A stretch of 59,757 nt of DNA, the filler included. It is 5 parts of 5 records of this genome, joined end to end, with 100 filler letters (N's around TTAATTAATTAA, not from the genome) between each part and the next. Parts side by side here need not be neighbours in the genome. Positions count along the whole stretch, not along the records: positions 19,148 to 38,186 come from DRR723986_4221; 4 more parts are not named here. One strand, 5' to 3'. The notes beneath the pieces were generated by a model. It was given only the letters and a program-made list of their open reading frames with translations, did not search any database and was not told the origin of the DNA. Made by a program: the position numbers and the translations under genes. Below, one piece after another: positions 21,600 through 38,120 of the stretch. Positions within the stretch are counted from its first letter, which is position 1. Each line of letters opens with the position of its first letter.

Positions 21600-21670
21600 C
21601 CGTTAATCGCGAAGCCACGCGCCCCAAGGGCTCGCGGTGGTGGAGTCATGGGAACCCGAAAATTTGCCAA

Positions 21671-21718: not shown

Positions 21719-21741
21719 TTCCGAATTTGAAACCGGTCCTG

Positions 21742-23116: not shown

Positions 23117-23117
23117 G

Positions 23118-23438: not shown

Positions 23439-24109
23439 TGCAGGCCTCCGAGTTTCTTAACTCCGCTGTCGATGGCGCTTTCCAGGTACTCCTGGGTACC
23501 TCGCTGGTGGATATGAGTGATGCCGAGGTCGCCGCCGCCCTGGTACACCAGCCGGGCTTTTTCCGCATTGCCAATCATTACCGGTTCATCTTGTGCACGC
23601 CCGCGCCTGAATCCGCTGTGCTGGCTGTTCTCGTGCTCACATGTACCGACCAGCTTTCGAGGGAACGACTCCGGCGGTTGTACCGTGAAGCCCTGGTAGA
23701 GCTTCTGGAAGTTGTTCCGGAGGAACGGGTATTCCTTGTCGTCAGTCATGCTGACCTTCAGCCAGCCGCCCAGGCGTTCGATGGCCGCGTGAATCTTGGG
23801 ATCGTCAAAAACGACTGACCGGTAATTGCCCACGCAGCGGATCGCGTGATCGACCTTGGCCCATGCCTCACCGCTGGCGGATTGGCTGCTGCCCTGGAGC
23901 AGTCGAACGATATCCGCTGGCTTTGGCGGGAACTGGCCAGTGTCCGGGTTGGTAATGTGTCGGGACAGGGCGCGCTCAATGTCCGCCAGCGAGAAAGCGA
24001 TCAGGGATTGGAACACCATGTAAACCACTCTCGGCTCCGGGCTCTTACCGTAGATCTCATGAGCCTGAGCCCACATATCGCCAAAGGCTTCCAGATCGTT
24101 AGTGTTCAT
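23435..24109 (-). CDS. Replication-module protein (DUF6475-like)
   Basis: GQFPPKPADI, AWAKV..AI..VG.Y.SVVFDDP.IH..I..LGGW; follows the initiator gene. Confidence 0.75.
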   Translation of the reverse strand: MNTNDLEAFGDMWAQAHEIYGKSPEPRVVYMVFQSLIAFSLADIERALSRHITNPDTGQFPPKPADIVRLLQGSSQSASGEAWAKVDHAIRCVGNYRSVVFDDPKIHAAIERLGGWLKVSMTDDKEYPFLRNNFQKLYQGFTVQPPESFPRKLVGTCEHENSQHSGFRRGRAQDEPVMIGNAEKARLVYQGGGDLGITHIHQRGTQEYLESAIDSGVKKLGGLH

Positions 24110-25376
24110 AGATCGCCCCCTGTTGGTTGCCAGTGCGCTGTTCGTGGATCCGGCGAAGCTCTGCGGCTCGATCGAGCCCTGCCTGCTCAGGAGATTTCCG
24201 ACGCTCGGATTTCCGTTGCATGGCTAGCTGAGACCACTTCTCGCGGAGTTTGTCCGGGCTTTGGATGTTCGCGGCCCAGAAGCTGTGTTGGCGGCACCAA
24301 CGCCAAAGGGCACGGATGTGCTGAATCTGACGACCCTCCCGCTCACGCATCAGGCGCACGGTGTTGGCCCAACGAGCGAAACTCGGCTGGCGGGGCTTGT
24401 CCTCGCCCATCTGGGCTTCCAGCTCGTCCCACATCGCCACAGCGGCGTTGAGATCTTCACGGGTACCCCAGTGCTTGCCATTCTCGATGGCGGCTTCGGG
24501 ACGGGAAGGCTCCGGGCTGGCTTCTGAGTCGCTTTCGTTCGAATGGGGCGAAGGGATGTCCGGCCGATCAGGCTCGGACGATCTCTCTGCCGTAGTCTCT
24601 GCTGTAGTCTCTGAAGTAATCTCTGTAATAGATTGCTCGCTCAAAGCAGACTTGCCTGCCTTGCCTAGACACTCTTGTTTGTCTTGGGTAGACAAACTGG
24701 TTTGCATTTGGGTAGACGGACTTAGTTTGTCTTGTGTAGACAGACTGGATTGGGAAACGCCACCTTTACGGCTATTGCAGGCGACGTGGGCGGGCTGAAG
24801 GTTTGCCTCGGTATGTTCGCCACCCTCGGCCAGAGGTTTCTTGTGATCGAAGCAGAGCGCTTTTCCATGCTGGCCGGGACCGTAGACGATTGGCTTTTGG
24901 CAACACCCGCAGACCATCCCATCGCGCTTTAGGACGGCACTGTAATCAACGTATTCAGTCTTGGCGCCCAGTTTCTTTGCGCGCATCATCCCGGTCTTTG
25001 AGAGGCCGTTCAGGGTGGACTTGTAGGTTTCCAGAGCGTCTTCGAGATCCAGTGCCTGGGGTGAGCCAAGCAGCGCTTTCTCCAGTGCATCCTCATTGAC
25101 GCGAAAGTACATCCTTGCAGGAACGCCTCGCCGCTTCTCCTCGAGGACGCCAATGGACTTGAGCGCCTTGCGGGCCCGCTCCTGTTCCCGGCGGTTCATT
25201 CCTGTCTCTTCTTCCCAGTCCTGCTGAGATTTGTAGAACCAGCCTTCTTCGTCGGTAACGCGCTTGGTCCAATAGATGCACTGAGACAGCATTAGGGCAC
25301 CCGCAATCCCGACACCGAGATCCACGAACGCGCGCTGAAAGGCGATCGGCCTGGCCATCAATTCAATCATGCTCAT
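24099..25376 (-). CDS. Phage replication initiator (O-like) with internal HNH domain
   Basis: N-terminal RPIAF..GALMLSQ..YW..GWFYKS...EETG wHTH; internal RDGMVCGCC..DH..P...GG.H...NLQPAHVACNSRKG; C-terminal FWAANIQSPDKLREKWSQL. Confidence 0.85.
   Translation of the reverse strand: MSMIELMARPIAFQRAFVDLGVGIAGALMLSQCIYWTKRVTDEEGWFYKSQQDWEEETGMNRREQERARKALKSIGVLEEKRRGVPARMYFRVNEDALEKALLGSPQALDLEDALETYKSTLNGLSKTGMMRAKKLGAKTEYVDYSAVLKRDGMVCGCCQKPIVYGPGQHGKALCFDHKKPLAEGGEHTEANLQPAHVACNSRKGGVSQSSLSTQDKLSPSTQMQTSLSTQDKQECLGKAGKSALSEQSITEITSETTAETTAERSSEPDRPDIPSPHSNESDSEASPEPSRPEAAIENGKHWGTREDLNAAVAMWDELEAQMGEDKPRQPSFARWANTVRLMREREGRQIQHIRALWRWCRQHSFWAANIQSPDKLREKWSQLAMQRKSERRKSPEQAGLDRAAELRRIHEQRTGNQQGAIYEH
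24677..24746. repeat. Three iteron-like repeats (putative phage origin) inside the initiator gene
   Basis: GTTTGTCTTGGGTAGACAAACT, GTTTGCATTTGGGTAGACGGACT, GTTTGTCTTGTGTAGACAGACT. Confidence 0.75.
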
Positions 25377-26113
25377 GCGGCCTTATCCTCGGTATCAAAA
25401 AGCATGTGTGTGTATTTGCCATCCCAGTCCTTACGCATTTCGAGCTGGCCCTGTTCGTACTGGGAATAGAGCCACTTGGCGCCCTTCTGGGTGAGGATTA
25501 CCTTCTCGCAGGGCCGATCCTCTTTGTTGAGGTAGCGGCGCTCGGTGAACAGCTTGTCCCGGTACGCAGCGGCGCTCCGGTAACCGTGCCGGGTCTTCAG
25601 GAGCCGCTTTCGCTCAACCAGGAGGGGCTGGACCCGGTTCAGGTTGACGCCGTTGAGCATCCGACAGAACTCAACCGGTGTGAGCCCGGCCTTCAGGTTG
25701 GCGGCCAGATCGTTGCACACTGCGTTCAGGCGATGGGTTTCGTCTTTGAAGTGCTCCAGCTGGCTGCTGAGATCTTCGAGGGCGATCCGGGCGGCTTGGC
25801 TAAGGTTTTGAGCCCAGGAGGGTAGGGCGGCTTTCGCTTCCAGCTCCTGCCAACGATCCACAAGCCGTGCGGTGAACTCCGGCGATAGCTGGGCAACGAT
25901 CACATAGCTGTCGCGTTTGCTGACGTGGTAGACCACCCCGGGGCGGCCTGTTTCGGACTTTTCCCCCACTGGGGTAAAACTCACAAGGCCGCGCTGGGAC
26001 AGCCTTTCAATCGATTGCTTCACTTTGTCGTGCCGGGACTCCACTACCTGGGCGATTTCCCGGCTGCTCATGGTGAGCGGCTGACCGTTGATTGTCGGTG
26101 TAAGTTGCTGCAT
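25373..26113 (-). CDS. Rha-family phage regulator / antirepressor-like protein
   Basis: TMSSREIA..VESRHDKVKQSIERL, RDSYVIVAQLSPEFTARLVDRWQELE; C-terminal LTQKGAKWL. Confidence 0.85.
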   Translation of the reverse strand: MQQLTPTINGQPLTMSSREIAQVVESRHDKVKQSIERLSQRGLVSFTPVGEKSETGRPGVVYHVSKRDSYVIVAQLSPEFTARLVDRWQELEAKAALPSWAQNLSQAARIALEDLSSQLEHFKDETHRLNAVCNDLAANLKAGLTPVEFCRMLNGVNLNRVQPLLVERKRLLKTRHGYRSAAAYRDKLFTERRYLNKEDRPCEKVILTQKGAKWLYSQYEQGQLEMRKDWDGKYTHMLFDTEDKAA

Positions 26114-26181
26114 ACTTTCTCCTATCTCGTCCACAGAACCCCGGTAGGCCTGCCAGCCCATGACCCGGGGTTTTGTCTTTT

Positions 26182-26592
26182 CTAGGCCTCTGGCCCTTTC
26201 CCCGTAATCACCACCCGCACTTCACCCAACGGCTTCACGATCTCGTCGCGCTTCAGGAATGGGTGTGTCCGAAAGTGGCAATCGTCGATTCCCAGAGCAT
26301 CCGCCAGCCCATCACGACCGGACTTGAACGCGGCAACCACGTTGTCGTCATCGCGTTGCCGGCGATTAGGTGGGCAGAAGTCCAGGAACACATGAATTTC
26401 ACCGCCAGCGGCTACCAGATCCCGAAGGGGTTGCAGATCCCACTTGCCCTGATTGATGGCATTCCGCGCTTCGATCTTGCAGGTGTAGCGGTACACCTCT
26501 GCCGCTCGGGCCTTCTTTGACCAGTGGCCCCGGCTATTCGGGCTAAGCGCCTTTGGTGGCCAGGGCAGGGTGATCTGCAGTTTCTCCGGCAT
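26182..26592 (-). CDS. rusA: RusA-like Holliday junction resolvase
   Basis: LPWPP...SPN, PPNRRQRDDDN...K...D.LADALGIDD. Confidence 0.85.
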   Translation of the reverse strand: MPEKLQITLPWPPKALSPNSRGHWSKKARAAEVYRYTCKIEARNAINQGKWDLQPLRDLVAAGGEIHVFLDFCPPNRRQRDDDNVVAAFKSGRDGLADALGIDDCHFRTHPFLKRDEIVKPLGEVRVVITGKGPEA

Positions 26593-26599
26593 GACTACT

Positions 26600-27113
26600 C
26601 CGCTGTCCGGTTTTATTTTTCGTGACGTGTCACGCTGATATGGCTGGCGGGTTATCCGGTATCACCGCCGTATACCCTTTGATGGGAGGTTGCCCAGACC
26701 CCCTACCGGTGGGAGCCACATGCAGCTTGTCATCGCTGTTTGATGCGGCGGCCGGGACACTCCCAACCCCTTACGCATCCGTGGAGGGCTCTACCTGACG
26801 CAGCAGACTGGGGACCTGCCAGGTCATCCTTGGTTGTGGGAGTAGAGCCCTCCCGGATACGGCCCGTCTTTCCGGGCTGTCAACGTGGTCACCTGGGGCG
26901 GAGGTCGTGACGGTCCTTTGGCCCACGCTGCTGGCGTTCTATCGGTGGTCCCTATCTCCACCTGCAATGTCGGCACCTCGGCTTACGCCTGGCCAGCTTT
27001 ACCGGCTGCTTCTGATAGCGCTGCAGCTCGCGCCTGCTGTGTCAAAGAATGGGGCTCTCGCTTCTGCTAAGCTGTTTCGCGCTACACAATCCAACTTTGA
27101 AAAGGAGAGCCCC
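26600..27113 (-). ncRNA. Candidate structured RNA / leader in the rightward early transcript
   Basis: No convincing ORF; series of stems including 26777-26858, 26861-26878 (GAAA loop), 26881-26930 and 27049-27115. Confidence 0.45.
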
Positions 27114-27293
27114 ATGGCTAACGAAACTGATTCAATTGAACGTATTGCCGCCGATATCCTCATCGCCACGATCCAGGCAGCGCACAATCAAACTGCTCAC
27201 GACCTTCTGAAGAAGCCCGAGGATATCGCCGAGCAGTTCAAGACCGTTCATGCTGCAGTTAAGACAGCGTTTGAGGATCGTCAGAAGTTTTAA
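27114..27293 (+). CDS. Small phage protein (59 aa), antisense to the PR operon
   Basis: AAGGAG RBS, extended -10-like TGCTAAGCT at 27065; MANETDSIERIAADILIATIQAA... Confidence 0.65.
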   Translation: MANETDSIERIAADILIATIQAAHNQTAHDLLKKPEDIAEQFKTVHAAVKTAFEDRQKF

Positions 27294-27468
27294 CCTCTGG
27301 CCCTTCGCCCTGGCGCAGTATTGCCAGGGCTTTGTTTACCGCCTTGGCGGCCTGATCCAAGGTCGCCCCGTTCGAAGCCGAATACTTCAATGCACATTCG
27401 AGGCGCCACTCAACTTCGGATCGAGTGAGCTCTCGCTTCGGCGACTCGCTTCCTGTTACTTCCGTCAT
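27259..27468 (-). CDS. Small phage protein downstream of cro (cII position)
   Basis: GAGGA RBS; 69 aa; no recognised family. Confidence 0.55.
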   Translation of the reverse strand: MTEVTGSESPKRELTRSEVEWRLECALKYSASNGATLDQAAKAVNKALAILRQGEGPEVKTSDDPQTLS

Positions 27469-27553
27469 TTCGCGATCCTCAATTCACTGTACAAATAACC
27501 ACCCATAGTCAGGCGGGTATTCCGCCAGCTCGTGAGTGGTTTAATGGAAACCA

Positions 27554-27802
27554 TCAGGCGGCCTCTCCGGTGCGCTTATCTGCCGGGAGTCCGTCAGTAG
27601 GGTTCGGGTAGATGTCCGGGCGGAGTTCGTGAGGAGTCACTTTCCAGTCCGAACCCTCGCAAATGGATAGGGCCCGCCTTGGCGAAATCGGGCGGATGCC
27701 GTTAACCATTTGATACAGATATGCCGGGGCTATACCGATCTGCTTTGCGAAATCGGTTCGGCCGCCTGGAGGCAATTGATTCAGAAAAGTTGAGAGTTTC
27801 AT
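27554..27802 (-). CDS. cro: Cro-like repressor (YdaS family)
   Basis: FAKQIGIAPAYLYQMVNGIRPISP HTH and VTPHELRPDIY motif; divergent from cI. Confidence 0.9.
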   Translation of the reverse strand: MKLSTFLNQLPPGGRTDFAKQIGIAPAYLYQMVNGIRPISPRRALSICEGSDWKVTPHELRPDIYPNPTDGLPADKRTGEAA

Positions 27803-27809
27803 GGTCAGA

Positions 27810-27869
27810 AATGTAGCTTTTGCTATATCTAACGTCAATAGCCAATGCGATATTAGCGGGCGCTATACT
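27810..27869. promoter_or_regulatory. OR region: three TAGC-N4-GC(T/G)A operators with PR and PRM
   Basis: Operators at 27814-27825, 27839-27850 and 27854-27865; PR TTGACG-N17-TACATT on minus strand; TATACT at 27864 before cI. Confidence 0.8.
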
Positions 27870-27875
27870 CGGGGA

Positions 27876-28676
27876 ATGAGCAGACGAGATGCGCTGAAGC
27901 GCTTAATTGATGAGAGATATGGCGGCAAGCAGGCCGACCTTGCGAGAGCGATCAACAGGTCGCCCTCCTTGGTATGGCAGTGCCTGAACGGCCATCGGAA
28001 CATTGGCGAAAAGCTCGCGAGGGAAATTGAGAGCAAGCTACGCCTCAAAAAGGGGTGGCTTGACGACATGGTGGTTGTTGACGAAGTCCACAAGGCCGAC
28101 GAATCAGCAGCCGATCTCTCGCGCCAAAATGATGGGGCTCTCGAAAACGGTCCGGTCATTGCTTTTACAGCTACACCGAAGAAAGCCAAGGCCGATGAAC
28201 TAGAGTTCTTCGGGCACATGGATGCCTGGGACAGCAACACGCCATTGAATGAGGATGAAGTAGAGTTGCCTCTGTTCAGGGAAGTCGAGCTGGCGGCCGG
28301 ATCCGGCGCCACTCAGGTGATAGAGAACCAGGGTGCCAAATTACGTTTCGCAAAGTCCACATTGAGCCGGGCCGGTGTTCCAGCTGAAGCCGCCGCCTGC
28401 GCCTTTGTTCGTGGTAACTCCATGGAACCGGTCATGCCGGATGGTACTTGTGTTGGCGTGAACACTGCCGATAAGACCATCAAGGATGGCGAGATTTATG
28501 CGATCGACCACGGCGGCATGCTTCGGGTGAAGTATCTGCACCGCCGACCAGGTGGTGGCATCAAGATCGTGAGCCAGAATGCGAGTGAGCATCCAGTTGA
28601 AGAAGTGACTGCTGAAGAAATGGCGGCCAATGTGCGCGTGATCGGCCGTGTGTTCTGGTGGTCTGTGCTACGCTAG
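27876..28676 (+). CDS. cI: CI repressor (HTH + S24 LexA-like peptidase)
   Basis: N-terminal HTH, AAG cleavage-site region, VRGNSMEP catalytic Ser, RVKYL catalytic Lys. Confidence 0.93.
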   Translation: MSRRDALKRLIDERYGGKQADLARAINRSPSLVWQCLNGHRNIGEKLAREIESKLRLKKGWLDDMVVVDEVHKADESAADLSRQNDGALENGPVIAFTATPKKAKADELEFFGHMDAWDSNTPLNEDEVELPLFREVELAAGSGATQVIENQGAKLRFAKSTLSRAGVPAEAAACAFVRGNSMEPVMPDGTCVGVNTADKTIKDGEIYAIDHGGMLRVKYLHRRPGGGIKIVSQNASEHPVEEVTAEEMAANVRVIGRVFWWSVLR

Positions 28677-28966
28677 TGAAAGTATGAAAAGGAGTTCACA
28701 TAAAGCCCCTGCAACTCGTTGCTCAAGCTACTCCTGTTAGCGAAAGCTCAGTGGCTGGAGCTCCAATCTATATGGTCTTGAGGCTGCACTACGCCCTCCC
28801 CGGGAGCGCTGTAAATGGTGGCGGTCTTTTGGGCGAGTCATTTTTATGAAGCCCCGAAGTGGTGTCCGACTATTGTCGGGGTAGTGATTAACCACCTGCC
28901 AGTAAAAGAAAATAACGAAAGTTAACACCGAAATAGTGAAATTTAATACTGGAAAGGTAGAAAAAA

Positions 28967-28986
28967 TTAACCTACAAGTTAATAAT
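28967..28986 (+). promoter_or_regulatory. HigA-type operator TTAAC-N6-GTTAA overlapping the -10 of the TA operon
   Basis: TTAACCTACAAGTTAA at 28967-28982, overlapping TAATAAT, 15 nt before the toxin ATG. Confidence 0.7.
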
Positions 28987-28997
28987 GGGCGCCCGAA

Positions 28998-29426
28998 ATG
29001 GACGTAGTCAGGCTTACGGAAGGAAAGTTTTCCGTAACAGCACAAGCTGAAAAAAGGAATGAGGACTGGGATATTCCCCTGGTCAATTTCCTTGACGAGC
29101 TGGAAGACAAGCAGTACGGCGGCATGGTGGATGGCTTGTATGCTCTGTTCGACCATTTTTCAGAGGAAGGGACGAACATCAGCAAAGATCTTTGCCACGA
29201 GGTCGATAAAGAGGAGGGAATCTATGAGTTTATCAAAGGTGATCTCAGGGCTCTTTGGTTTTACGCAAAGGGTCACAGAGGGATAGTTATTTGCTCGCAT
29301 GCTTTCGTGAAAAAAGGCCAAAAAACCCCAAATAAAGAAAAGAGAAGAGCTATTCGCCTCAAACGACAGTATGAGGAAGGTGGACGCTCGCTAAACATTA
29401 TCGAAGATCAGGATCTGGGGGAGTGA
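28998..29426 (+). CDS. higB: HigB/RelE-family (Gp49-like) mRNase toxin
   Basis: GIYEFIKGDLRALWF...SHAFVKKGQKTP..E...A signature; toxin gene precedes antitoxin. Confidence 0.85.
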   Translation: MDVVRLTEGKFSVTAQAEKRNEDWDIPLVNFLDELEDKQYGGMVDGLYALFDHFSEEGTNISKDLCHEVDKEEGIYEFIKGDLRALWFYAKGHRGIVICSHAFVKKGQKTPNKEKRRAIRLKRQYEEGGRSLNIIEDQDLGE

Positions 29427-29427
29427 T

Positions 29428-29850
29428 ATGTCACTGACTAAACTGCGCAATCTTAAATCAAGGGTCAGATCTCGGGATGGATATTGGGTGGAGAAGCTAA
29501 AGCTTGAATTCACCAAAGCACTATCCGATCAAATGAAAAGGCACAACCTCAAGAAAGGCGAGATCGCGAAAAAACTCGATCTTTCCGCTCCATACATGAC
29601 AAAGGTAATGCGTGGCGATGAGAACTTTACTATTGAAACAATGGTGAAGTTAGCAAGGGCGGCTGGCGGCCAGCTGCACCTCCATATCTCCGACAAAGGT
29701 AGCGACGTTAGCTGGATTGAATGCAACGGAGGTAACTCATACCGAGAGTTCATATCAAATCTTACTGAAGATCGGTATGACTTTGATGGTGATAATTTCT
29801 CCATTCTACGGGCTGGGGGAAAGAGGGAGTGCGGTGATGTGGCAGCTTGA
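29428..29850 (+). CDS. higA: HigA-like XRE antitoxin with C-terminal ChAD-like extension
   Basis: HTH IAKKLDLSAPYMTKVMRGDENFTIETMVKLA followed by an aromatic/acidic ~45-aa tail. Confidence 0.85.
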   Translation: MSLTKLRNLKSRVRSRDGYWVEKLKLEFTKALSDQMKRHNLKKGEIAKKLDLSAPYMTKVMRGDENFTIETMVKLARAAGGQLHLHISDKGSDVSWIECNGGNSYREFISNLTEDRYDFDGDNFSILRAGGKRECGDVAA

Positions 29851-30280
29851 GCTCAAGCGTTATTTTTTTCCTGAAACCACAGTCACAGCAAGAAAAGAGC
29901 ACATCAAGCCGTCAGATAAGGGCTTACGAGAATCTCCGGAAATAGAGGTTTCCCTTGGGTATGGAGTTAATAGCGAAGAAAGACTCCTAGTTTTAAACGT
30001 AACCGTTGAAACTGTCGAGCTCGTCGATGAGAATCCATACGAGTTCAAAATCACGGCCTTTGGGTCTTTCAAAGTGGAGAGCACGGAAGGGAAGCAGGAG
30101 TTTGATGATGATTTTCATGCAAACAAGAAGCAACTAACCAGGAACTGCGCGCAAATACTGATCGGATCAATCCGTGATCACCTGCTGAGCGTTACTGCAA
30201 AATCCGCGTTTGGTCCACTTTATCTGGATACTGTCTATATTGGGCTAGAGAATATACCAGACGAACCTGAGCATGCTTAA
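29837..30280 (+). CDS. SecB-like chaperone (third TAC component)
   Basis: PYEFKITAFGSF...NCAQILIGSIRDHLLSVTAKSAFGPLYLDTV matches the SecB C-terminal helix pattern; overlaps higA. Confidence 0.8.
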   Translation: MWQLELKRYFFPETTVTARKEHIKPSDKGLRESPEIEVSLGYGVNSEERLLVLNVTVETVELVDENPYEFKITAFGSFKVESTEGKQEFDDDFHANKKQLTRNCAQILIGSIRDHLLSVTAKSAFGPLYLDTVYIGLENIPDEPEHA

Positions 30281-30302
30281 AGCCCGCATTCGCGGGCTTT
30301 TC
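30279..30302. terminator. Bidirectional intrinsic terminator
   Basis: AAAGCCCGC-ATTC-GCGGGCTTTT between convergent genes. Confidence 0.8.
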
Positions 30303-30303
30303 C

Positions 30304-31038
30304 TTATCCGCAATAATCCGCCAGCAACTGCTTGTAACGGCTGAGCTTGGTCTGACCCGGATCCAGCCCATACATCTTCACTATCCTCACAAATCGACTG
30401 ACATACTGGCATTTGCCGGAGGGCGGTAACCAGCTTTCCGGGCCCTGGGCACCTTTGCTACGGTTCAGGCTGGCCTCTACTGGTATCAGGTTTATCGGAT
30501 CGTTCGCGAACTTCTCCCGCTTTGCCTTCGTCCAGGAGCTGGCGCCGTGATCCCAGGCCCACTTCAGGGGCACCACATGGTCAATATCAATATCGCCGGC
30601 GTTCTGTATCACGTTGCCGGTAAACATGCTGATCCAGCGCCCGGTAACCACTCTGCAGCGGCGTTCGTCCGCAAACCTCACGGTCGTCGTTGAAGCGGTT
30701 ATCAGCGCTTCAGCGCGGCTATCCCGGCAGTCTCCATCTGCATCATCCCAGCCATGCCCAAACTTGCTTCTCTCATAACCACTGCTGGCCGGCTGCCTGA
30801 CCGGCGCTTCGGCTTTTGCTATGGAGCGAAACTCGCTCATGTTCTTTGGCAGGCGCCCGCCTGACTGGATGCAAGCGTGAACTGAATCGAAAGCCTGGTA
30901 GTTCTTCGTGCGGTCGTAGTGGGAGCTGGCGGGTGGGTGGCAGATTCCTGATTTCGATTTCTTGACGAGCTCTGCCTGTGCCGTAGTGGCGCTGGCTATC
31001 AGCACCAAGGCGAGGAGGGTATTCACTACTGCTTTCAA
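30304..31038 (-). CDS. Exported HNH endonuclease (DUF1524-like) with small N-terminal Cys/His domain
   Basis: TTG start with GGGAGA RBS, signal peptide ending in AQA; YERSKFGHGWDDADGDCRDSR, DIDHVVPL..AW..GA, FANDPINL, NRSKG. Confidence 0.85.
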   Translation of the reverse strand: MKAVVNTLLALVLIASATTAQAELVKKSKSGICHPPASSHYDRTKNYQAFDSVHACIQSGGRLPKNMSEFRSIAKAEAPVRQPASSGYERSKFGHGWDDADGDCRDSRAEALITASTTTVRFADERRCRVVTGRWISMFTGNVIQNAGDIDIDHVVPLKWAWDHGASSWTKAKREKFANDPINLIPVEASLNRSKGAQGPESWLPPSGKCQYVSRFVRIVKMYGLDPGQTKLSRYKQLLADYCG

Positions 31039-31113
31039 TGTGACGGTCTCCCTGTTTTGCGAGGGCGGAACCATAGCCTATTTCGGGATATCACGGAAAT
31101 GCTATACAAAAAG

Positions 31114-31156
31114 ATAGCAAAAGCTATTGACCAAAAAATATAGCCGGTGCTATTGT
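31114..31156 (+). promoter_or_regulatory. OL operators and PL promoter
   Basis: ATAGCAAAAGCTAT (31114-31127), ATAGCCGGTGCTAT (31140-31153); TTGACC-N18-TATTGT. Confidence 0.8.
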
Positions 31157-31189
31157 TTGCCCATAGTCGTTGATCAGGGAGACAACACC

Positions 31190-31579
31190 ATGGGCCGCAG
31201 ACAGAAACCGCAGTACCCCCGAATGATCGTTGAGCTGGCGGACGAGTCACTGCTTCCGCCTCGCCGGGCCGAAGTCGTCATGCTGGCAGCCCGGGGCATG
31301 AGCACAAAAGAGATTGCGCGAGAGCTCAACATTTCACCCGCTACCGTTAGCTGGCACCTCGACGAGGCCAAAGATCAGCTGCATGCCCACAGCAAAGCAG
31401 ATCTGGTTTCCCAGGGCTGGATGCAAGGCCTGTTTCGGGCCCGGATGCTCGCTTGGGCGCTGATGGCCTTCGCTACCGTGCCCGCGATGCGCAGTCGGCC
31501 CACGCCAATCAGTGGCGGTCGCCCTCCCGTTACCCAGAACACCATCGGCCGCACGGCTATTCGCGGCATCTACGCATAA
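31190..31579 (+). CDS. LuxR-type HTH protein, first gene of the PL operon
   Basis: LPPRRAEVVMLAARGMSTKEIARELNISPATVSWHL. Confidence 0.85.
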   Translation: MGRRQKPQYPRMIVELADESLLPPRRAEVVMLAARGMSTKEIARELNISPATVSWHLDEAKDQLHAHSKADLVSQGWMQGLFRARMLAWALMAFATVPAMRSRPTPISGGRPPVTQNTIGRTAIRGIYA

Positions 31580-31589
31580 GGAGCAGAGC

Positions 31590-31793
31590 ATGGCAGCTGT
31601 AACTGTGGAATTTCCGGAACACCTGACCCTGGCAAAACTGGATCCTGCACTCCGCCAGCTTGCAACCGAGCTGGGATGCGAGATTCGCCTGGGCGCTAAT
31701 CGCACCTACAAGGTCGTGCCCAGGGAAAAGAACGTGGTCCGTCTGCCTGTGCGGCTGCGGCAAATCAATCAGCCGGGCCCGGGCGCGGCATAA
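31590..31793 (+). CDS. Phage hypothetical protein
   Basis: TAAGGAG RBS; 67 aa. Confidence 0.65.
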   Translation: MAAVTVEFPEHLTLAKLDPALRQLATELGCEIRLGANRTYKVVPREKNVVRLPVRLRQINQPGPGAA

Positions 31794-31803
31794 GGAGATC
31801 GGC

Positions 31804-31992
31804 ATGCTAGTAGTTACCAGGAAGGACGGCGAAGCGCTGGTGATCACCCCGGAGGGTGGGCCGGAGATCAAGGTGGTGATGATCCATAACAGCGGCAACA
31901 CAGCCCGCATGGGAATCATTGCGCCGAAGTCGGTGACCATCGACCGGGAGGAAGTCCACCTGAAGAAGCGGGAGGGTAAGCGCCGTGGCTGA
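31804..31992 (+). CDS. csrA: Phage-encoded CsrA/RsmA homolog
   Basis: TAAGGAG RBS; MLVVTRKDGEALVI...ARMGIIAPKSVTIDREEV aligns to CsrA MLILTR..GE...I...VRIG..APK.V.VHREEI. Confidence 0.85.
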   Translation: MLVVTRKDGEALVITPEGGPEIKVVMIHNSGNTARMGIIAPKSVTIDREEVHLKKREGKRRG

Positions 31993-32275
31993 TGCATGGG
32001 CATGGATACATGAAGGACGGGTGGCCGGTGCGTTTATCGGTAAAACCCCGGCTGACTTCTGCGCTGATCGGTCAGGTGGGTGCGTTATCCCGTTACGGGC
32101 TGAGACCGCCAAGGTCCGGTATGCAGACGAGCTTTACCAGGTGCTCAAAGACCTGACCGGGCTGGCCATGATGGCGGCGGCACCCCTGAACACTTACCAG
32201 GCAGCCGTTCGGAATTCCAACGAGCTGCTGCAACAGATCGAACGCGAATCCACGGAGGACTCAAACCATGGCTGA
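31985..32275 (+). CDS. Phage hypothetical protein
   Basis: Coupled ORF in the PL operon with GGGAGG RBS. Confidence 0.65.
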   Translation: MADAWAWIHEGRVAGAFIGKTPADFCADRSGGCVIPLRAETAKVRYADELYQVLKDLTGLAMMAAAPLNTYQAAVRNSNELLQQIERESTEDSNHG

Positions 32276-32795
32276 TGTTCTGGACGTGCTCGGCGTGATC
32301 AAGGAAGCCGAGCGCTCAACCAAGGCGTTGATGGAAGCCTTCCCGAATTGGTCGGACAGAGCTTTTGCATCGGGCTTTCTGGGAAACATGCGCAGCGCCG
32401 GGCTGATTCACAAGCGCTCGAATGGGTACTGGGCGCTGACCCAAAAGGGCCGCGAGCGGCTGGAAGGTGTCAGTGACCTGGGCAAGAAAGAGGCGGCACC
32501 TGATCCCGCTGCGACTGAAGATCCAGCCGACGAAAAGGTAACCGTTGTGTCGGACTGGGAACAGACCATTCGTGACACGTCACGGAAAGCAGAAAGTGAC
32601 GCAACAGTCGCCCAGCTCAATTCCTGGGAAATGGCCCGCCGTCTTCAGCATGAGATCCCGAATGGCAGCAGCCTGGTGATCGAGGCAGACGAGGTGTTCC
32701 TGGCATGGCGCGGCGCTCGGTTTGCCATCCAAAAGCCGGAAGACCTGCAGGCCTTCAAGGCCATTCAGGAAGCGTATGTGGGCGAGGTGGCGTGA
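32268..32795 (+). CDS. Phage hypothetical protein (N-terminal wHTH-like)
   Basis: GGAGG RBS; GLI...NGYWALTQKGRERL. Confidence 0.65.
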   Translation: MADVLDVLGVIKEAERSTKALMEAFPNWSDRAFASGFLGNMRSAGLIHKRSNGYWALTQKGRERLEGVSDLGKKEAAPDPAATEDPADEKVTVVSDWEQTIRDTSRKAESDATVAQLNSWEMARRLQHEIPNGSSLVIEADEVFLAWRGARFAIQKPEDLQAFKAIQEAYVGEVA

Positions 32796-33025
32796 TGAGC
32801 AGCTATACCCCCCCCCAGATCAAAGTGTTACAGCACATGCAGGAGACCGGGCAGAGCATCAATGTTGATGCCAGCGGCAGGGCCTTCATGGTCGATGGAA
32901 CCCAAGTGAACCAGTTAACGCTACGGGCCCTGGTTAAGAAAGGCGCCCTTGTCCCGTGCGGCAAAGATCTGTTCGGGGAGGGGGTGACTGCATACAGCAT
33001 TTCGAGCGAGGCATTAGCGGCATGA
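32795..33025 (+). CDS. Phage hypothetical protein
   Basis: TGATG coupling; MSSYTPPQ... Confidence 0.6.
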   Translation: MSSYTPPQIKVLQHMQETGQSINVDASGRAFMVDGTQVNQLTLRALVKKGALVPCGKDLFGEGVTAYSISSEALAA

Positions 33026-33180
33026 AGTCGCCAGAAGAAATCATCGAACTGATTGAGAGGGCAGGGCTGGCCTACATCCACTCCAGCGGGTGCGCAGTGC
33101 TCAAAGACGGCACCTGGTTACAGCCAGAGGAATGGGATGTGTGGTTGGAGCACCTGAAAGAAGCGGAGACAGAATCATGA
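33022..33180 (+). CDS. Phage hypothetical protein
   Basis: ATGA coupling; MKSPEEII... Confidence 0.55.
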   Translation: MKSPEEIIELIERAGLAYIHSSGCAVLKDGTWLQPEEWDVWLEHLKEAETES

Positions 33181-33389
33181 GCAAAGGTCCTCAGTACGTA
33201 ATCGGAAGTTCCGCCAGCGATTGCGAGACATCATTGATGCTCAGCGCTACCACCAGCCCGGTGAGCACGCTGGCAACCGTGGCCGAAACCCTGCACTACA
33301 TGAACGCCAACGCCATCGAAAAGATCAGCCACCGGAAGGCCCTGATGAAGGCGGGCCGAAAGGCGCTGAACGTGTTGGGGGATGCGTGA
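33177..33389 (+). CDS. Phage hypothetical protein
   Basis: ATGA coupling; MSKGPQYV... Confidence 0.55.
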   Translation: MSKGPQYVIGSSASDCETSLMLSATTSPVSTLATVAETLHYMNANAIEKISHRKALMKAGRKALNVLGDA

Positions 33390-33673
33390 TGGCCATGACC
33401 CCAGCCGAACGAAAACGCCGTCAGCGGGAGCGGGAAAAGGAGCTGGACATGCAGACCTACCGCATGGAGCTCACCAGCTCAGAGCGACACAGCATTGCCA
33501 AGGCCGCCAGCAGGCAGGGGTATGACGATCAGACAGAGTATTTGCTTGACCTGGTATACGCAGATCTGAAGAAGCCCGCCAGCCGGGCCTGCAACTACCC
33601 GGAGTGCAACTGCCCATTTGATAAGCCGGCAGACGCCGAGTGTTACCGGGGTTATGAGGAGCAGGCTGCATGA
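33389..33673 (+). CDS. Phage protein, possible ribbon-helix-helix DNA-binding protein
   Basis: MAMTPAERKRRQRER...YRMELTSSERHSIAKAA...TEYLLDLV, plus C-terminal Cys cluster. Confidence 0.6.
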   Translation: MAMTPAERKRRQREREKELDMQTYRMELTSSERHSIAKAASRQGYDDQTEYLLDLVYADLKKPASRACNYPECNCPFDKPADAECYRGYEEQAA

Positions 33674-33870
33674 GCATGACGCAGAAGCAAAAGGAAAGGG
33701 CCGTGAAAAAGGCAGTGAAAAAAATGGATGAGGCGGCCGACTGCATGCTTGACCTGGTGGCAATCGCTCACGAACACGGCGTGAAAGACACTGCTCTGGA
33801 GGGCCGCTTTATCTCGGAACTTCGGGAGCGGGCGGGATATTGGGACCGGTGCACATGGTGGAAGAAATGA
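33670..33870 (+). CDS. Phage hypothetical protein
   Basis: ATGA-coupled 66-aa ORF. Confidence 0.55.
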   Translation: MSMTQKQKERAVKKAVKKMDEAADCMLDLVAIAHEHGVKDTALEGRFISELRERAGYWDRCTWWKK

Positions 33871-34136
33871 TTGAGCCTCAGCTCCAAATGCCCAGGGCCT
33901 GCATCAGCTGCGAACACTACAGCCCGGTAGGGCATGACGATGACAAGCATTGCCCGTTTACCAACCGGTGGGGCGAAACCCATGGGCGAACCAGTTACGG
34001 CCAGTGCGATCTGCACGGCCAGGAAGTCTTCGCCACGGAAATATGCAATAGCCACGAGCCAGAGCCTTTCGTTCACCTAGTGGACGTGACCAATCGGCCA
34101 GAGCCTCGATCTGCAATACAGGAGAGACTGCTGTGA
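33867..34136 (+). CDS. Cys/His-rich phage protein
   Basis: CISCEHY...HCPF...GQCDLH...ICNSH. Confidence 0.6.
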   Translation: MIEPQLQMPRACISCEHYSPVGHDDDKHCPFTNRWGETHGRTSYGQCDLHGQEVFATEICNSHEPEPFVHLVDVTNRPEPRSAIQERLL

Positions 34137-34474
34137 CCAGACCAATGTTTATCAGCGAGCGCAGCGACGAGCAGGCCGAAATGTTTGCCAAGTTGCTCCC
34201 GAAGGACGTTTACACACTCTTACGCCTGTTTGAGAACTACCGCGGGATTGATCTGCCTCAGGGTTGGCAGGATCTGCTGCAGGTATACCACAGCGTTTTC
34301 GAGGATCCCGACAAGCGGCCAAAGACCTCATGGCGTCCCGATCGGCTGCGCAAGGCTCTGGATAAAGCTCAGGAGCTGGGCCTGATTGAACTGCAGCGCA
34401 ATCATCACTGGATGATTACACCCGAAGGGCTAAAGGCTCGGAAGGCAGAGACTGTGCGGAGGATGAAAGGGTGA
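34133..34474 (+). CDS. Phage hypothetical protein (wHTH-like C-terminus)
   Basis: GTGA coupling; LGLIEL....WMITPEG. Confidence 0.6.
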   Translation: MTRPMFISERSDEQAEMFAKLLPKDVYTLLRLFENYRGIDLPQGWQDLLQVYHSVFEDPDKRPKTSWRPDRLRKALDKAQELGLIELQRNHHWMITPEGLKARKAETVRRMKG

Positions 34475-35598
34475 ACATCGAACTAAATCCAATCGCAGAA
34501 TCCAAAGTCCGCCAGCTGGGCGGCGATGTTTGCGGGGTGCTGGTGCGGGATGACAGCGGAGTTATGGCCGTGTCCGAGCATGGCCGCTGCACTCGTCTTG
34601 ATGTGGCGGTCATGGGGCCGGTTGAACCGGCTGGCATGAGTGAGCGTGAACTGTTTGAGAAGTGGATGGCTGACAACGTTGATGACTGCGATGACATCGG
34701 AAGCGAAACCCTGTTTCAGTGCTGGCAAGCCGCGCGCGCTCGAGGTGGTCAGCCCGAGAATCCGGCAGCATGGGTGAGTCGAGACCTTTTAAATGGCGAA
34801 TGCGTAGGATCGATGGCTTACCGCGAGAAAAATGGCAACGATCAGGTGCCTGTATATGCCAGCGCTCAAAGTGGGCAGGGTGTGGAGGCACGAGGCTTCG
34901 ACTTTGACGGCTGGTACGACAAACACGAAAGCCTTTTCCGTGAAGGGGCGGGCAAGTCTGACCTAAGGGCGGCATATAGACAGGGTTATAGAGACTCACA
35001 GCCCCAGCCCGCCGTGCCGGAGGGGTGGAGAGTTATCCGTATGCCGGAATTGCAGAAAGCCCTTATGACAGGCCCGATAATTGGGTTGGATGGGCCGCGA
35101 GGTGAGTCAGTGCCTGTGGTTTCGGATTCTGACGATAGGAGGGAAAGGCATCTGTACCAGTTCCTGGGCGCCCTACTCTCCACCCCAACCACGCCCCAGC
35201 CAGCAAGCCCTTCTGTGCCTGTTTCGGTGATAACACCCGAAATCGTTGATTGGGTGAAGTGCGGGATTGCTGCGAACAACAGACACAAGGAAAAGGAAGC
35301 TGTAGATGCGTTCCACAGATTCAACGATGCAGTACTGAAGGCTTCTGAGGCAATGAACAATGACGCCTCCCCCACGCCCCAGGCTGATGGGTGCAAACAG
35401 GCCGTAATTTTAACCGTCTGCTATCAGGAAGGTTGCAGCGAATGGGAACCGATCTATTTCAGCCCAGACGCTTCGGATGAAGTGATCGAAGCCACTGTTT
35501 ACGAAGATCTCTACCACGAAATCCACTCAAACCCTGGCTTCAGGAGCTATAGCTGGAAGCGGGTTGAGAGCCCACAACCAGCGAAGGAGGGCGAGTGA
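34471..35598 (+). CDS. Modular (Ea/Ead-like) phage early protein
   Basis: RELFEKW..WQAARA, PAAW, PVY and PAVPEGW modules separated by PTPQ-type linkers. Confidence 0.65.
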   Translation: MNIELNPIAESKVRQLGGDVCGVLVRDDSGVMAVSEHGRCTRLDVAVMGPVEPAGMSERELFEKWMADNVDDCDDIGSETLFQCWQAARARGGQPENPAAWVSRDLLNGECVGSMAYREKNGNDQVPVYASAQSGQGVEARGFDFDGWYDKHESLFREGAGKSDLRAAYRQGYRDSQPQPAVPEGWRVIRMPELQKALMTGPIIGLDGPRGESVPVVSDSDDRRERHLYQFLGALLSTPTTPQPASPSVPVSVITPEIVDWVKCGIAANNRHKEKEAVDAFHRFNDAVLKASEAMNNDASPTPQADGCKQAVILTVCYQEGCSEWEPIYFSPDASDEVIEATVYEDLYHEIHSNPGFRSYSWKRVESPQPAKEGE

Positions 35599-36802: not shown

Positions 36803-36806
36803 TGAC

Positions 36807-38074: not shown

Positions 38075-38120
38075 GGGGTTTTGGTTTTCTATTGGTTCTA
38101 TTTTGGTTGGCCAAAAACGA

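What the first reader, a model, noticed from the sequence alone, without database searches (positions are those of the whole stretch)
28998..30280. Prophage toxin-antitoxin-chaperone (HigB-HigA-SecB) module in the rexAB slot of the immunity region
Seen: three coupled genes that are visibly AT-richer than their neighbours. They encode a RelE/Gp49-type toxin, an XRE antitoxin with an aromatic/acidic C-terminal tail (SWIECNGGNSYREFISNLTEDRYDFDGDNFSIL...), and a SecB-like protein. They lie directly after cI, between OR and OL. Established: TAC systems use a ChAD tail that makes the antitoxin dependent on the chaperone, and prophage HigBAC systems in E. coli restrict phage when a phage protein titrates the chaperone. 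Inference: this is a divergent TAC anti-phage system from a marine gammaproteobacterial prophage, expressed in the lysogen, with an unknown trigger.
Basis: partly seen in the sequence, partly recalled or inferred. Interest (0 to 1): 0.8.

Follow-up and report, generated by a model that had tools for sequence, protein, structure and literature searches.

The report
Prophage toxin-antitoxin-chaperone cassette beside cI
A prophage of a Marinobacter-like bacterium carries, just after its repressor gene, a three-gene toxin, antitoxin and SecB-like chaperone cassette of a kind already shown in E. coli to abort phage infection, so it is a sound new example and not a new kind of system.

Summary
Three translationally coupled genes (28998-29426, 29428-29850, 29837-30280, + strand) encode:
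- a gp49/HigB-type RelE-fold toxin;
- an XRE-HTH antitoxin with a 49-residue aromatic, acidic tail ending Ala-Ala;
- a protein with a SecB fold, shown by a family profile against solved structures and by an AlphaFold model.

The cassette has 45% G+C against 57% for the rest of its contig. It carries its own conserved promoter region and a terminator. It lies after cI, between three OR operators and two OL operators, which is the rexAB position of lambda.

The same toxin-antitoxin-chaperone order recurs in 72 of 80 genomes that hold a relative of the antitoxin. Seven further loci also have it downstream of a cI-type repressor. Close relatives sit in non-prophage sites, so it is a mobile cassette.

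This matches the published E. coli NT1F31 HigBAC, which is also downstream of cI. It is therefore a new member of a known kind.

Chaperone addiction, anti-phage activity, the trigger and expression in the lysogen remain inferred. The co-fold test gave no verdict.

One caution: the window is five contigs joined by artificial N linkers, so the "host flanks" are not adjacent to the prophage.

The parts
27554..27838 (-). cro-like repressor gene (likely start is the ATG at 27802)
   Evidence: Pfam YdaS_toxin/HTH_3 and PHROG 35 transcriptional repressor, E 5e-23. It is divergent from cI.
27813..27866 (.). OR: three 14-bp operators ATAGC-N4-GCTAT (27813-26, 27838-51, 27853-66; one mismatch each)
   Evidence: 5 of 6 window matches cluster here and at OL; chance expectation 0.67; 0 of 100 shuffles reach 6.
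27876..28676 (+). cI-type repressor (ORF opens at 27801; probable ATG at 27876)
   Evidence: Peptidase_S24 E 2e-21; PHROG 4 / CI-like repressor; 66% identical to the cI of the related prophage L001.
28911..28997 (+). Cassette's own upstream region: promoter-like sites 28922-28950 and 28958-28986, and an inverted repeat TTAAC-N6-GTTAA at 28967-28982 (candidate HigA operator)
   Evidence: DNA homology to L001, L003 and L005 starts at 28908-28911 whatever lies upstream. The region is nearly invariant in 4 of 4 contexts. Promoter scan. The operator role is inferred.
28998..29426 (+). higB: gp49-family RelE-fold toxin, 142 aa
   Evidence: Pfam Gp49 E 6e-11. A 72-sequence family profile hits S. pneumoniae HigB 6af3 at E 1.1e-8. 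The model (pLDDT 70) matches 6af4 best, TM 0.64/0.75, and also M. tuberculosis HigB1. It keeps the family-invariant R84 and K105.
29428..29850 (+). higA: XRE-HTH antitoxin, 140 aa
   Evidence: HTH_37 E 1.6e-7, HTH_3. 25 homologues align over the HTH domain.
29701..29847 (+). Putative chaperone-addiction (ChAD) tail of HigA, residues 92-140, ending Ala-Ala
   Evidence: It is an extension beyond the HTH domain, conserved only among close relatives. W96, F/Y105 and Y117 are kept in 11 of 11. A C-terminal AA is linked to the presence of a chaperone gene across loci. Function is inferred.
29837..30280 (+). higC: SecB-like chaperone, 147 aa
   Evidence: 23 of 50 family members hit Pfam SecB. The family profile hits only SecB in the PDB, E 6.5e-8. 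AF2 pLDDT is 91. The Foldseek top hits are SecB, and 5mtw_B (M. tuberculosis SecB-like TAC chaperone) scores E 1.6e-5.
30279..30299 (.). Terminator hairpin shared with the convergent gene
   Evidence: AAAGCCCGC-loop-GCGGGCTTT followed by TCCTT, dG -15.6 kcal/mol, z -3.6. It is conserved in L001 and L005.
30304..31074 (-). Convergent gene for a GmrSD_C/HNH-type nuclease with a signal-peptide-like N-terminus; it also lies inside the immunity region. It is a neighbour and is not shown to be part of the TAC.
   Evidence: Pfam GmrSD_C E 2.6e-12. L001 keeps only its last 51 codons, 78% identical.
31114..31153 (.). OL: two perfect operators ATAGC-N4-GCTAT overlapping a promoter-like site (31127-31156, +)
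31190..31579 (+). First gene of the early 'leftward' operon, a GerE/LuxR-type HTH protein (ORF lister start 31127; likely ATG at 31190)
   Evidence: Pfam GerE E 1e-12; sequence.
19148..38186 (.). The prophage contig. It is bounded by artificial linkers (N44-TTAATTAATTAA-N44) at 19048-19147 and 38187-38286. It runs from inside the large-terminase gene to just past the integrase gene (36998-38074).
   Evidence: N runs; terminase gpA, DUF1441, DUF2570, YbcO, Rha, integrase.

Best explanation
This is a HigBAC-type tripartite toxin-antitoxin-chaperone (TAC) cassette carried as an accessory gene set ('moron') in the immunity region of a lambdoid prophage. HigB is a gp49-family, ribosome-dependent mRNA endonuclease. 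HigA binds and neutralises it, and probably represses the cassette's own promoter at the TTAAC-N6-GTTAA repeat. HigA carries a 49-residue aromatic tail ending in Ala-Ala. That tail makes it unstable (aggregation and/or ClpXP degradation) unless the SecB-like HigC holds it. In a lysogen the three proteins are in balance. When an infecting phage makes a protein that competes for HigC, HigA is lost, HigB cuts mRNA, translation stops and the infection aborts. Shown here: the gene identities, the folds of toxin and chaperone, the coupling of the genes, the slot between OR and OL, the cassette's autonomy and mobility, and the conserved architecture. Inferred: chaperone addiction, the degron, autoregulation, anti-phage function and the trigger. 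The confidence given is for the whole statement including the anti-phage role; identity as a TAC alone I put at about 0.9.
For: Identity of the parts:
- Toxin.
- Antitoxin.
- Chaperone.

Conserved toxin-antitoxin-chaperone order:
- It is present in 5 of 5 metagenome loci found with the chaperone.
- A SecB-like ORF lies directly downstream of the antitoxin in 72 of 80 genome loci found with the antitoxin. Two of the 8 misses are cut by the end of the locus.

Tail and degron are linked to the chaperone:
- 41 of 77 chaperone-linked antitoxins end in Ala-Ala, and 61 of 77 end in x-Ala.
- None of the 6 assessable antitoxins without a chaperone gene ends in Ala-Ala, and these have shorter tails.

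Autonomy: DNA homology to three different contexts starts 87-90 nt upstream of higB and includes promoter-like sites and an invariant inverted repeat. A terminator follows.

Slot: OR and OL operators flank cI, the TAC and one further gene.

Precedent in print:
- E. coli NT1F31 HigBAC lies on a lambdoid prophage 'downstream of the cI repressor', where lambda has RexAB. [quoted passage not shown]
- A C-terminal Ala-Ala or Val-Ala acts as a ClpXP degron in CmdA and M. tuberculosis HigA1.
- TAC antitoxins are defined by a variable C-terminal extension (Bordes 2016, passages).

Accessory character: TAC-type chaperone paralogues were found in only 3 of 151 genomes of the genus of Marinobacter piscensis, whereas 137 of 151 gave a match, most of them only one weak hit that I read as housekeeping SecB.
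Against: - No functional result exists for this locus.
- The window chaperone on its own misses the Pfam and NCBIfam SecB cut-offs (E 0.015 and 0.019) and has no PDB hit by single sequence.
- The match to the PADLOC TAC-chaperone model PD-T4-9_C is only E 0.03.
- The tail is net acidic (10 D/E against 5 K/R). Bordes et al. describe SecB-binding motifs as aromatic and basic, with acidic residues disfavoured.
- The toxin model is only moderately confident (pLDDT 70).
- No relative of the chaperone was found in 50,697 phage records by tblastn or in IMG/VR contigs. A phage-borne life style is therefore documented only by prophage contexts.
- Most loci of the wider family are not next to cI: 77 of 84 modules. 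TACs were first described as stress-responsive modules.
Confidence: 0.6

Rival explanations
1. The cassette is a genuine TAC, but its role is to stabilise the prophage or itself (post-segregational killing, addiction) or to slow growth under stress, as first proposed for M. tuberculosis TAC. It would have no role in phage defence.
For: The same cassette sits in plain chromosomal sites. Examples are L003, between cinA-recA and mutS, and L004/L005, beside a different convergent gene. Most of the wider family is not prophage-borne: 77 of 84 modules have no cI-type gene upstream. Bordes 2016 frames TACs as stress-responsive (abstract and passages).
Against: Both experimentally tested E. coli TACs protect against phages. 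The neighbours in the survey often are defence or mobile genes: MmeI-type and type I restriction-modification genes, a DNA methylase, Fic proteins, other TA pairs, transposases. The cI-to-OL slot is a known position for exclusion genes. Addiction and defence do not exclude each other.
Confidence: 0.22
2. The SecB-like protein is a general or phage-serving chaperone, for example for export of the neighbouring signal-peptide nuclease or for virion proteins. HigBA would then be an ordinary two-gene TA that happens to lie next to it.
For: A convergent gene for a probably secreted GmrSD_C/HNH nuclease lies 24 nt downstream, and a remnant of it follows the TAC in L001. SecB's classical role is in export.
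Against: The chaperone gene overlaps the antitoxin gene by 14 nt and follows it in 72 of 80 genome loci. None of the 85 loci fetched by then (L001-L085), apart from the L001 remnant, holds a relative of the nuclease gene. Most genomes of the genus searched gave a separate weak SecB-type hit, read as the housekeeping SecB. Tail length and the Ala-Ala end of the antitoxin go with the chaperone gene.
Confidence: 0.05
3. The module is an inactive relic with no present function.
For: The prophage is seen only as a 19-kb contig. The relative L001 has lost the neighbouring nuclease gene. In Marinobacter piscensis (L006) the antitoxin and chaperone genes lack the toxin gene.
Against: All three frames are intact and full length. 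The toxin keeps the two invariant and all near-invariant residues of 72 relatives. The upstream control region is nearly invariant in four contexts. Fragments 100% identical to all three genes occur in contigs of RNA libraries, which is only a weak hint.
Confidence: 0.05

Closest known systems
E. coli NT1F31 HigBAC (Mets et al. 2024; preprint 10.1101/2024.02.24.581848 read: abstract, sections 5 and 7)
   Same: Toxin-antitoxin-chaperone gene order. HigB-type translation-targeting toxin. HTH antitoxin with an aromatic C-terminal ChAD. SecB-like chaperone. Location on a lambdoid prophage downstream of cI, in the RexAB slot.
   Different: The tail here is 49 residues, against 96 there (residues 122-218). 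It ends in Ala-Ala, whereas NT1F31 HigA inactivation is reported not to rely on ClpXP. The host is a Marinobacter-like marine bacterium. I could not align the sequences because the E. coli proteins were not in hand. No relative was found by tblastn in the phage collection. The trigger here is unknown.
Mycobacterium tuberculosis HigB1-HigA1-SecB(TA), Rv1955-1957 (Bordes 2016, PMC5105189, passages; PDB 5mtw, 7awk, 7nbu)
   Same: gp49-family toxin. The mBio 2025 review table lists HigB1 under PF05973. The toxin model here matches 7nbu and 7awk. The antitoxin extension is of similar length, 45 aa against 49 aa. There is an aliphatic-Ala C-terminus. The chaperone model matches 5mtw_B at E 1.6e-5.
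   Different: That system is chromosomal and not on a prophage. Its ChAD motifs are aromatic and basic, whereas the tail here is net acidic. Chaperone identity to the solved chain is only 12%. Its role is described as stress response.
CmdTAC / PD-T4-9 of E. coli (PMC11618068 and PMC9519451, search listing only; Mets et al. sections read)
   Same: A prophage-borne TAC with a SecB-like chaperone as phage sensor. The antitoxin ends in Ala-Ala, which acts as a ClpXP degron.
   Different: Its toxin is an mRNA ADP-ribosyltransferase, not a RelE-fold RNase. The match of the chaperone here to the PADLOC PD-T4-9_C model is only E 0.03.
Lambda RexAB
   Same: The same genomic position: downstream of cI, inside the immunity region. 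By analogy it would be expressed in the lysogen as an exclusion function.
   Different: The proteins and the mechanism are unrelated. The comparison with lambda's gene map is from my own knowledge, plus the sentence in Mets et al..

Membership tests
Toxin-antitoxin-chaperone (TAC) system | Three adjacent co-oriented genes in the order toxin, antitoxin, SecB-like chaperone | tested here: met
   (1-nt gap, 14-nt overlap). The same order is seen in 5 of 5 metagenome loci and 72 of 80 genome loci.
Toxin-antitoxin-chaperone (TAC) system | The chaperone has the SecB fold and is a paralogue of housekeeping SecB | tested here: met
   Family profile against the PDB: only SecB, E 6.5e-8. 23 of 50 relatives hit Pfam SecB. 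AF2 pLDDT 91 and Foldseek top hits SecB, with 5mtw_B at E 1.6e-5. Weak separate SecB-type hits in the genus, read as housekeeping SecB. The single sequence alone is below the Pfam cut-off.
Toxin-antitoxin-chaperone (TAC) system | The antitoxin carries a C-terminal extension absent from two-component homologues | tested here: met
   A 49-aa tail lies beyond the HTH domain. The six assessable relatives without a chaperone gene have estimated tails of 10-40 aa where one could be estimated (5 of 6), and none ends in Ala-Ala.
Toxin-antitoxin-chaperone (TAC) system | The antitoxin needs the chaperone to neutralise the toxin; the chaperone binds the extension | not testable with these tools
   This needs toxicity-rescue and binding assays. 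The one co-fold job gave no verdict (see Tried and rejected).
HigB / gp49 (PF05973) RelE-fold toxins | Match to the family profile and a RelE/BECR fold | tested here: met
   Pfam E 6e-11, above the cut-off. The profile of 72 relatives hits HigB 6af3 at E 1.1e-8. Foldseek 6af4 TM 0.64/0.75. Catalytic residues are not mapped. R84 and K105 are invariant in the family.
Lambdoid immunity region, cI-to-OL accessory ('rexAB') slot | HTH+S24 repressor divergent from cro, with repeated operators at both ends of the region | tested here: met
   three operators at 27813-27866 and two at 31114-31153.
Anti-phage defence system (abortive infection) | Reduces phage plating or yield; is triggered by a phage product | not testable with these tools
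   Only analogy and context. PADLOC models gave only weak or partial hits: NsnC 4.5e-7 over 44 residues of the toxin, and PD-T4-9_C at E 0.03.

The most novel reading that the evidence does not exclude
This clade of HigBAC may be a portable sensor-killer cassette that lambdoid prophages of several gammaproteobacterial genera (Marinobacter-like, Oleiphilaceae, Pseudomonas, Bowmanella, Competibacter) have captured repeatedly into the cI-to-OL slot. Its short, net-acidic ChAD ending in Ala-Ala may be read by the chaperone in a way that differs from the aromatic-basic mode of M. tuberculosis. It may be released by a structural protein of marine phages that is unrelated to lambda gpV. If so, it would give a second, independent trigger-chaperone pair and a handle on phage exclusion in marine heterotrophs.
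Probability: 0.15. Interest if true: 0.55.

Novelty: new member of a known kind. Interest (0 to 1): 0.33.

Why it matters
TAC systems are among the few toxin-antitoxin modules with a worked-out way of sensing phage: the chaperone is titrated by a phage protein. So far only two E. coli examples have been tested against phages.

This locus shows that the same architecture occupies the same prophage slot in a distant, marine host. The survey adds seven more cI-linked loci and about seventy chromosomal ones. That supports the view that the cI-to-OL slot is a general landing place for exclusion cassettes. It also supports the view that HigBAC modules move as self-contained units with their own promoter.

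The locus offers a compact antitoxin tail (49 residues) for studying chaperone addiction and ClpXP degrons. It does not open a new question.

Tried and rejected
- **Co-fold of the chaperone with HigA residues 88-140** (complex prediction). No verdict: score 0.01 against a mark of 0.34, my alignments were not used, and the controls were not run. It counts neither for nor against binding.
- **Single-sequence searches of the chaperone.** No PDB hit at E up to 10. Only 4 close relatives by the word-indexed search.
- **The search for related loci with the 15-row alignment A3** failed because the alignment had no conserved stretch. With the 7-row alignment A4 it found no relative in genome contigs or viral contigs, and 5 loci in metagenome contigs.
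- **tblastn of the chaperone against 50,697 phage records:** no match.
- **No whole genome is held for the window**. Copy number and the presence of a housekeeping secB in this organism could not be checked.
- **A truncated prophage next to host genes.** I first read it that way. I rejected this when the N44-TTAATTAATTAA-N44 linkers were seen: the contig simply ends.
- **Search for att repeats across the contig ends**. It returned only the linkers.
- **Earlier notes of this scan:** none for this place.
- **Sequencing runs**. None holds half of the stretch's sampled words. Parts without cover say nothing. The habitat labels of small-share runs were not used.
- **Flanking genes.** The second batch (loci L050-L085) was not sent to Pfam. 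Their cI-type neighbours were instead found with a home-made HTH+S24 profile, and the four hits were confirmed in Pfam. Other neighbour types in that half are unclassified.
Full report
**What is there**

Between 28998 and 30280 the + strand carries three tightly packed ORFs of 142, 140 and 147 codons. The first two are 1 nt apart. The third starts at an ATG (29837) that lies 14 nt inside the second. GGAG and GAGGGAG precede the second and third start codons. The first has no evident Shine-Dalgarno sequence. This suits a toxin-first operon in which the toxin is made sparingly. The cassette has 45.1% G+C against 57.4% for the rest of its contig. Each of its three genes has 45-46%, while cI has 56% and the downstream gene 57%.

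**The three proteins**

Gene 1, the toxin:
- It passes the Pfam cut-off for Gp49 (PF05973, E 6e-11).
- A profile of 72 relatives collected here hits one PDB sequence at E up to 0.1, the HigB toxin of Streptococcus pneumoniae (6af3, E 1.1e-8 over 107 residues).
- An AlphaFold model built on ten close relatives is only moderately confident (pLDDT 70). Its best Foldseek matches are that HigB (TM 0.64/0.75), followed by RelE, by M. tuberculosis HigB1, which is the toxin of the founding TAC, and by YoeB/ParE-type toxins.
- R84 and K105 are invariant in the 72 sequences. H67, G81, F88 and C99 are nearly so, and the window protein keeps them all.
- A 2025 review table files gp49/PF05973 toxins, HigB1 among them, as ribosome-dependent mRNA-degrading toxins with toxin-antitoxin gene order (PMC11980606, passages).

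Gene 2, the antitoxin:
- It is an XRE-type HTH protein (HTH_37 1.6e-7, HTH_3 2e-4).
- Its HTH domain aligns with 24 homologues. The last ~49 residues are conserved only among the nine or ten close relatives.

Gene 3, the chaperone:
- On its own it is only a sub-threshold SecB (Pfam E 0.015, NCBIfam 0.019), with no PDB hit.
- An exhaustive HMMER search found 46 cluster representatives at E up to 1e-3: four at 1e-10 or better, none at 1e-30.
- I aligned 45 of them (leaving out one 1,852-residue repeat protein) with four closer homologues and the window protein. Of these 50 sequences, 23 hit Pfam SecB at E up to 0.01.
- Their profile hits exactly three PDB sequences at E up to 1. All three are SecB of Haemophilus or E. 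coli, at 6.5e-8 to 1.1e-7 over nearly the full length.
- The AlphaFold model is confident (pLDDT 91, pTM 0.85). It shows a four-stranded sheet followed by a long helix.
- Foldseek gave 23 matches at E up to 0.001. Those listed are SecB chains, two streptococcal proteins of unknown function, and 5mtw_B, the M. tuberculosis SecB-like TAC chaperone bound to a ChAD peptide (E 1.6e-5, TM 0.57/0.61).
It has the fold.

**The tail**

Residues 92-140 of the antitoxin hold six aromatic residues, ten acidic and five basic, and end in Ala-Ala. W96, F/Y105 and Y117 are aromatic in 11 of 11 close relatives.

I collected 85 loci that encode a relative of the antitoxin. Five came from a metagenome scan with the chaperone and 80 from a scan of species-representative genomes with the antitoxin. 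I then searched their ORFs with profiles of the three proteins.

- A SecB-like ORF starts within a few tens of nucleotides of the antitoxin's end in 5 of 5 and in 72 of 80 loci.
- Of the eight misses, two loci end before a chaperone gene could appear (L037, L080).
- A same-strand toxin ORF of 125-152 residues was found in 68 of the 80 and 3 of the 5 loci. In L002 and L004 the contig end cuts it off.
- Among the 77 antitoxins followed by a chaperone gene, 41 end in Ala-Ala and 61 end in x-Ala.
- The six assessable antitoxins without a chaperone gene end in LG, HD, HD, KS, QR and AP. Where a tail could be estimated (5 of 6) it is shorter, 10-40 residues.

This is comparative support that the extension and its alanine end belong with the chaperone. 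It fits three published points:
- TAC antitoxins are marked by a variable C-terminal extension that confers chaperone addiction (Bordes et al. 2016, passages).
- The Ala-Ala end of CmdA and the Val-Ala end of M. tuberculosis HigA1 are ClpXP degrons (Mets et al., section 7).
- Aromatic residues of the ChAD slot into pockets of the chaperone (same section).

One feature does not fit neatly. The tail is net acidic, whereas classical SecB-binding motifs disfavour acidic residues.

**Where it sits**

- Upstream is a repressor with an N-terminal HTH region and a Peptidase_S24 domain (E 2e-21). It is divergent from a cro-like gene.
- The 73-bp space between their likely start codons holds three copies of the operator ATAGC-N4-GCTAT, each with one mismatch.
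- Two perfect copies lie at 31114-31153. They overlap a promoter-like site that faces a GerE/LuxR-type gene, the first of a rightward operon that ends with the integrase gene.
- These five are all but one of the six matches in the whole window. Chance expectation is 0.67, and none of 100 shuffles reaches six.
- The region between OR and OL thus contains cI, the TAC and one convergent gene for a GmrSD_C/HNH-type nuclease with a signal-peptide-like start. In lambda's map, which I recall from knowledge, this is where rexA and rexB lie.

**A self-contained, mobile cassette**

- By blastn the window matches L001, L003 and L005 from 28908-28911 onwards, whatever lies upstream in each.
- The shared 87-90 nt before the toxin's ATG are nearly invariant. 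They include two promoter-like sites and a perfect inverted repeat TTAAC-N6-GTTAA over the second -10 element. I take this repeat to be the HigA operator, by analogy with autoregulated higBA operons (review passage).
- A stable hairpin follows the chaperone's stop codon (dG -15.6 kcal/mol, z -3.6). It is shared with L001 and L005.

The contexts differ:
- L001 is a related prophage: cI 66% identical, Rha 56%, YbcO 82%, and another protein 83%. There the cassette follows cI and one zinc-ribbon gene. Only the last 51 codons of the nuclease gene survive.
- L003 has the cassette between cinA-recA and mutS.
- L004 and L005 have it beside a different convergent gene.

In the wider family, a same-strand HTH+S24 repressor lies 79-1358 nt upstream in 7 of 84 modules: L001, L007, L044, L060, L071, L079 and L082. 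L071 also has a divergent cro, and L079 a Rha gene. These come from an Oleiphilaceae genome, three Pseudomonas, Bowmanella and Candidatus Competibacter.

The neighbours of L006-L050 that I classified in Pfam are otherwise a mix of housekeeping genes and defence or mobile genes. They include MmeI-type and type I restriction-modification genes, a DNA methylase, Fic proteins, other toxin-antitoxin pairs, IS transposases and KilA-N. The neighbours of L051-L085 were not classified apart from the repressor search.

I built a tree of concatenated toxin and antitoxin with 70 rows. Sixteen loci were left out because they lack a full-length toxin or antitoxin ORF. The search was quick, with SH-aLRT support only.
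- Six of the eight cI-linked rows fall in one nine-row group.
- The label still needs five changes, of which at least three are forced by well-supported branches.
- The shuffled mean is 7.7, and 1 of 500 shuffles is as low.
- The window's own four-row clade (support 100) holds two prophage copies and two non-prophage copies.

So the cassette has moved between prophage and chromosomal sites more than once.

**Host and rarity**

The window is not one stretch of genome. Four 100-nt linkers (N44-TTAATTAATTAA-N44) lie at 19048, 38187, 47133 and 54425, so five contigs have been strung together. The prophage piece is one contig, 19148-38186. It starts inside the large-terminase gene. It ends about 110 nt after the integrase gene, in what looks like the 3' end of a tRNA gene (my reading of the sequence; ARAGORN calls none). 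Whether the prophage is complete cannot be told, and the 'host genes' on either side are not its neighbours.

A malate:quinone oxidoreductase on another contig of the window is 87% identical to that of the genome holding L006 (Marinobacter piscensis) and 71% to that of an Oleiphilaceae genome. This supports a Marinobacter-like host if the contigs come from one organism.

In 151 genomes of that genus, the chaperone profile found a match in 137. Most of these are only a weak hit (E 1e-5 to 1e-8, profile positions about 30-140), which I take to be housekeeping SecB. Strong TAC-type hits (E below 1e-10) occur in just three genomes. The TAC chaperone is thus a rare accessory paralogue.

**Expression**

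This is not shown. Contigs from two metatranscriptome libraries of one study hold pieces 100% identical to all three genes: 29150-29435, 29402-29614, 29470-29622 and 30084-30257. Their cI piece differs at 12 of 149 positions. This is no more than a hint.

**Verdict**

The locus is a HigBAC-type toxin-antitoxin-chaperone cassette in the cI-to-OL slot of a lambdoid prophage. Its identity is well supported, at about 0.9. Its most likely role, by precedent and context, is exclusion of other phages through abortive infection when a phage protein competes with the antitoxin tail for the chaperone, at about 0.6. A pure addiction or stress role is the main rival.

Architecture, mechanism and even the slot are already published for E. 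coli, so this is a new member of a known kind. The additions are these:
- a marine host;
- a short acidic Ala-Ala-ended tail;
- the cassette boundaries with its own control region;
- a survey showing the same module in some seventy species;
- seven more cI-linked loci.

For papers I saw the following:
- Mets et al. preprint: outline with abstract, and sections 5 and 7 part 1.
- Bordes 2016: passages.
- mBio 2025 (PMC11980606): passages.
- The iLund4u preprint: one passage.
- All others: the search listing only.

I searched the literature for 'toxin-antitoxin-chaperone'+'SecB'+'phage' (24 papers) and for 'HigBAC' (11 papers). I ran no search specific to Marinobacter, so I do not claim that this locus is unreported.

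Noticed in passing
window 19048-19147, 38187-38286, 47133-47232, 54425-54524: Four artificial 100-nt linkers (44 N, TTAATTAATTAA, 44 N) are present. The window is five contigs strung together, so gene adjacency across these points is not real. ORFs called across them, such as the terminase 'start' at 21115 running to 19100, are cut by the linker.
   Followed up: yes
window 30304-31074 (-): A gene for a GmrSD_C/HNH-type nuclease (Pfam E 2.6e-12) with a signal-peptide-like N-terminus and a weak 'sunset' domain hit lies inside the immunity region, convergent with the TAC. The related prophage L001 keeps only its last 51 codons (L001 8472-8624). It may be a second accessory gene, possibly a secreted nuclease.
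   Followed up: partly
window 31660-31992 (+); L082 7114-7536: A CsrA-family gene (Pfam E 5.5e-14) lies in the early operon downstream of OL. A CsrA-like gene also follows the TAC in the Pseudomonas paraversuta prophage locus L082 (35% identity over 54 residues).
   Followed up: no
L006 2796-4874 (Marinobacter piscensis): This is the closest isolate genome. It has the antitoxin and chaperone genes but no toxin gene by the family profile. Upstream is a 358-residue ORF with no Pfam hit at 1e-8 whose sequence reminds me of a Y1/REP-type transposase (recalled, not tested). It may be a decayed TAC.
   Followed up: partly
L039 242-2905 (Lysobacterales genome): Two chaperone-linked modules lie tail to tail: the HigBAC-type one on the + strand, and on the - strand a MqsA-type antitoxin gene (Pfam E 1.5e-13) followed by a second SecB-like ORF (profile E 3e-16).
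   Followed up: no
L003 4992-11341: The same cassette is inserted between cinA-recA and mutS in a metagenome contig with no phage genes nearby.
   Followed up: partly
protein P0008: A 1,852-residue protein matches the first ~50 residues of the chaperone in 11 separate stretches (E 1.5e-12). It is a repeat protein built of SecB-N-terminus-like units, or possibly a mis-assembly.
   Followed up: no
window 28406-28579 versus 29150-30257 in runs X1 and X2: In two metatranscriptome libraries the contig pieces over the TAC are identical to the window. The piece over cI differs at 12 of 149 positions and another runs on into unlike sequence. This would fit the same cassette sitting behind a different repressor allele.
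   Followed up: no
window 38165-38186: The prophage contig ends, about 110 nt after the integrase gene, in a sequence whose reverse complement looks like the T-arm and acceptor 3' end of a tRNA. This suggests integration at a tRNA gene and an assembly break at that repeat.
   Followed up: no
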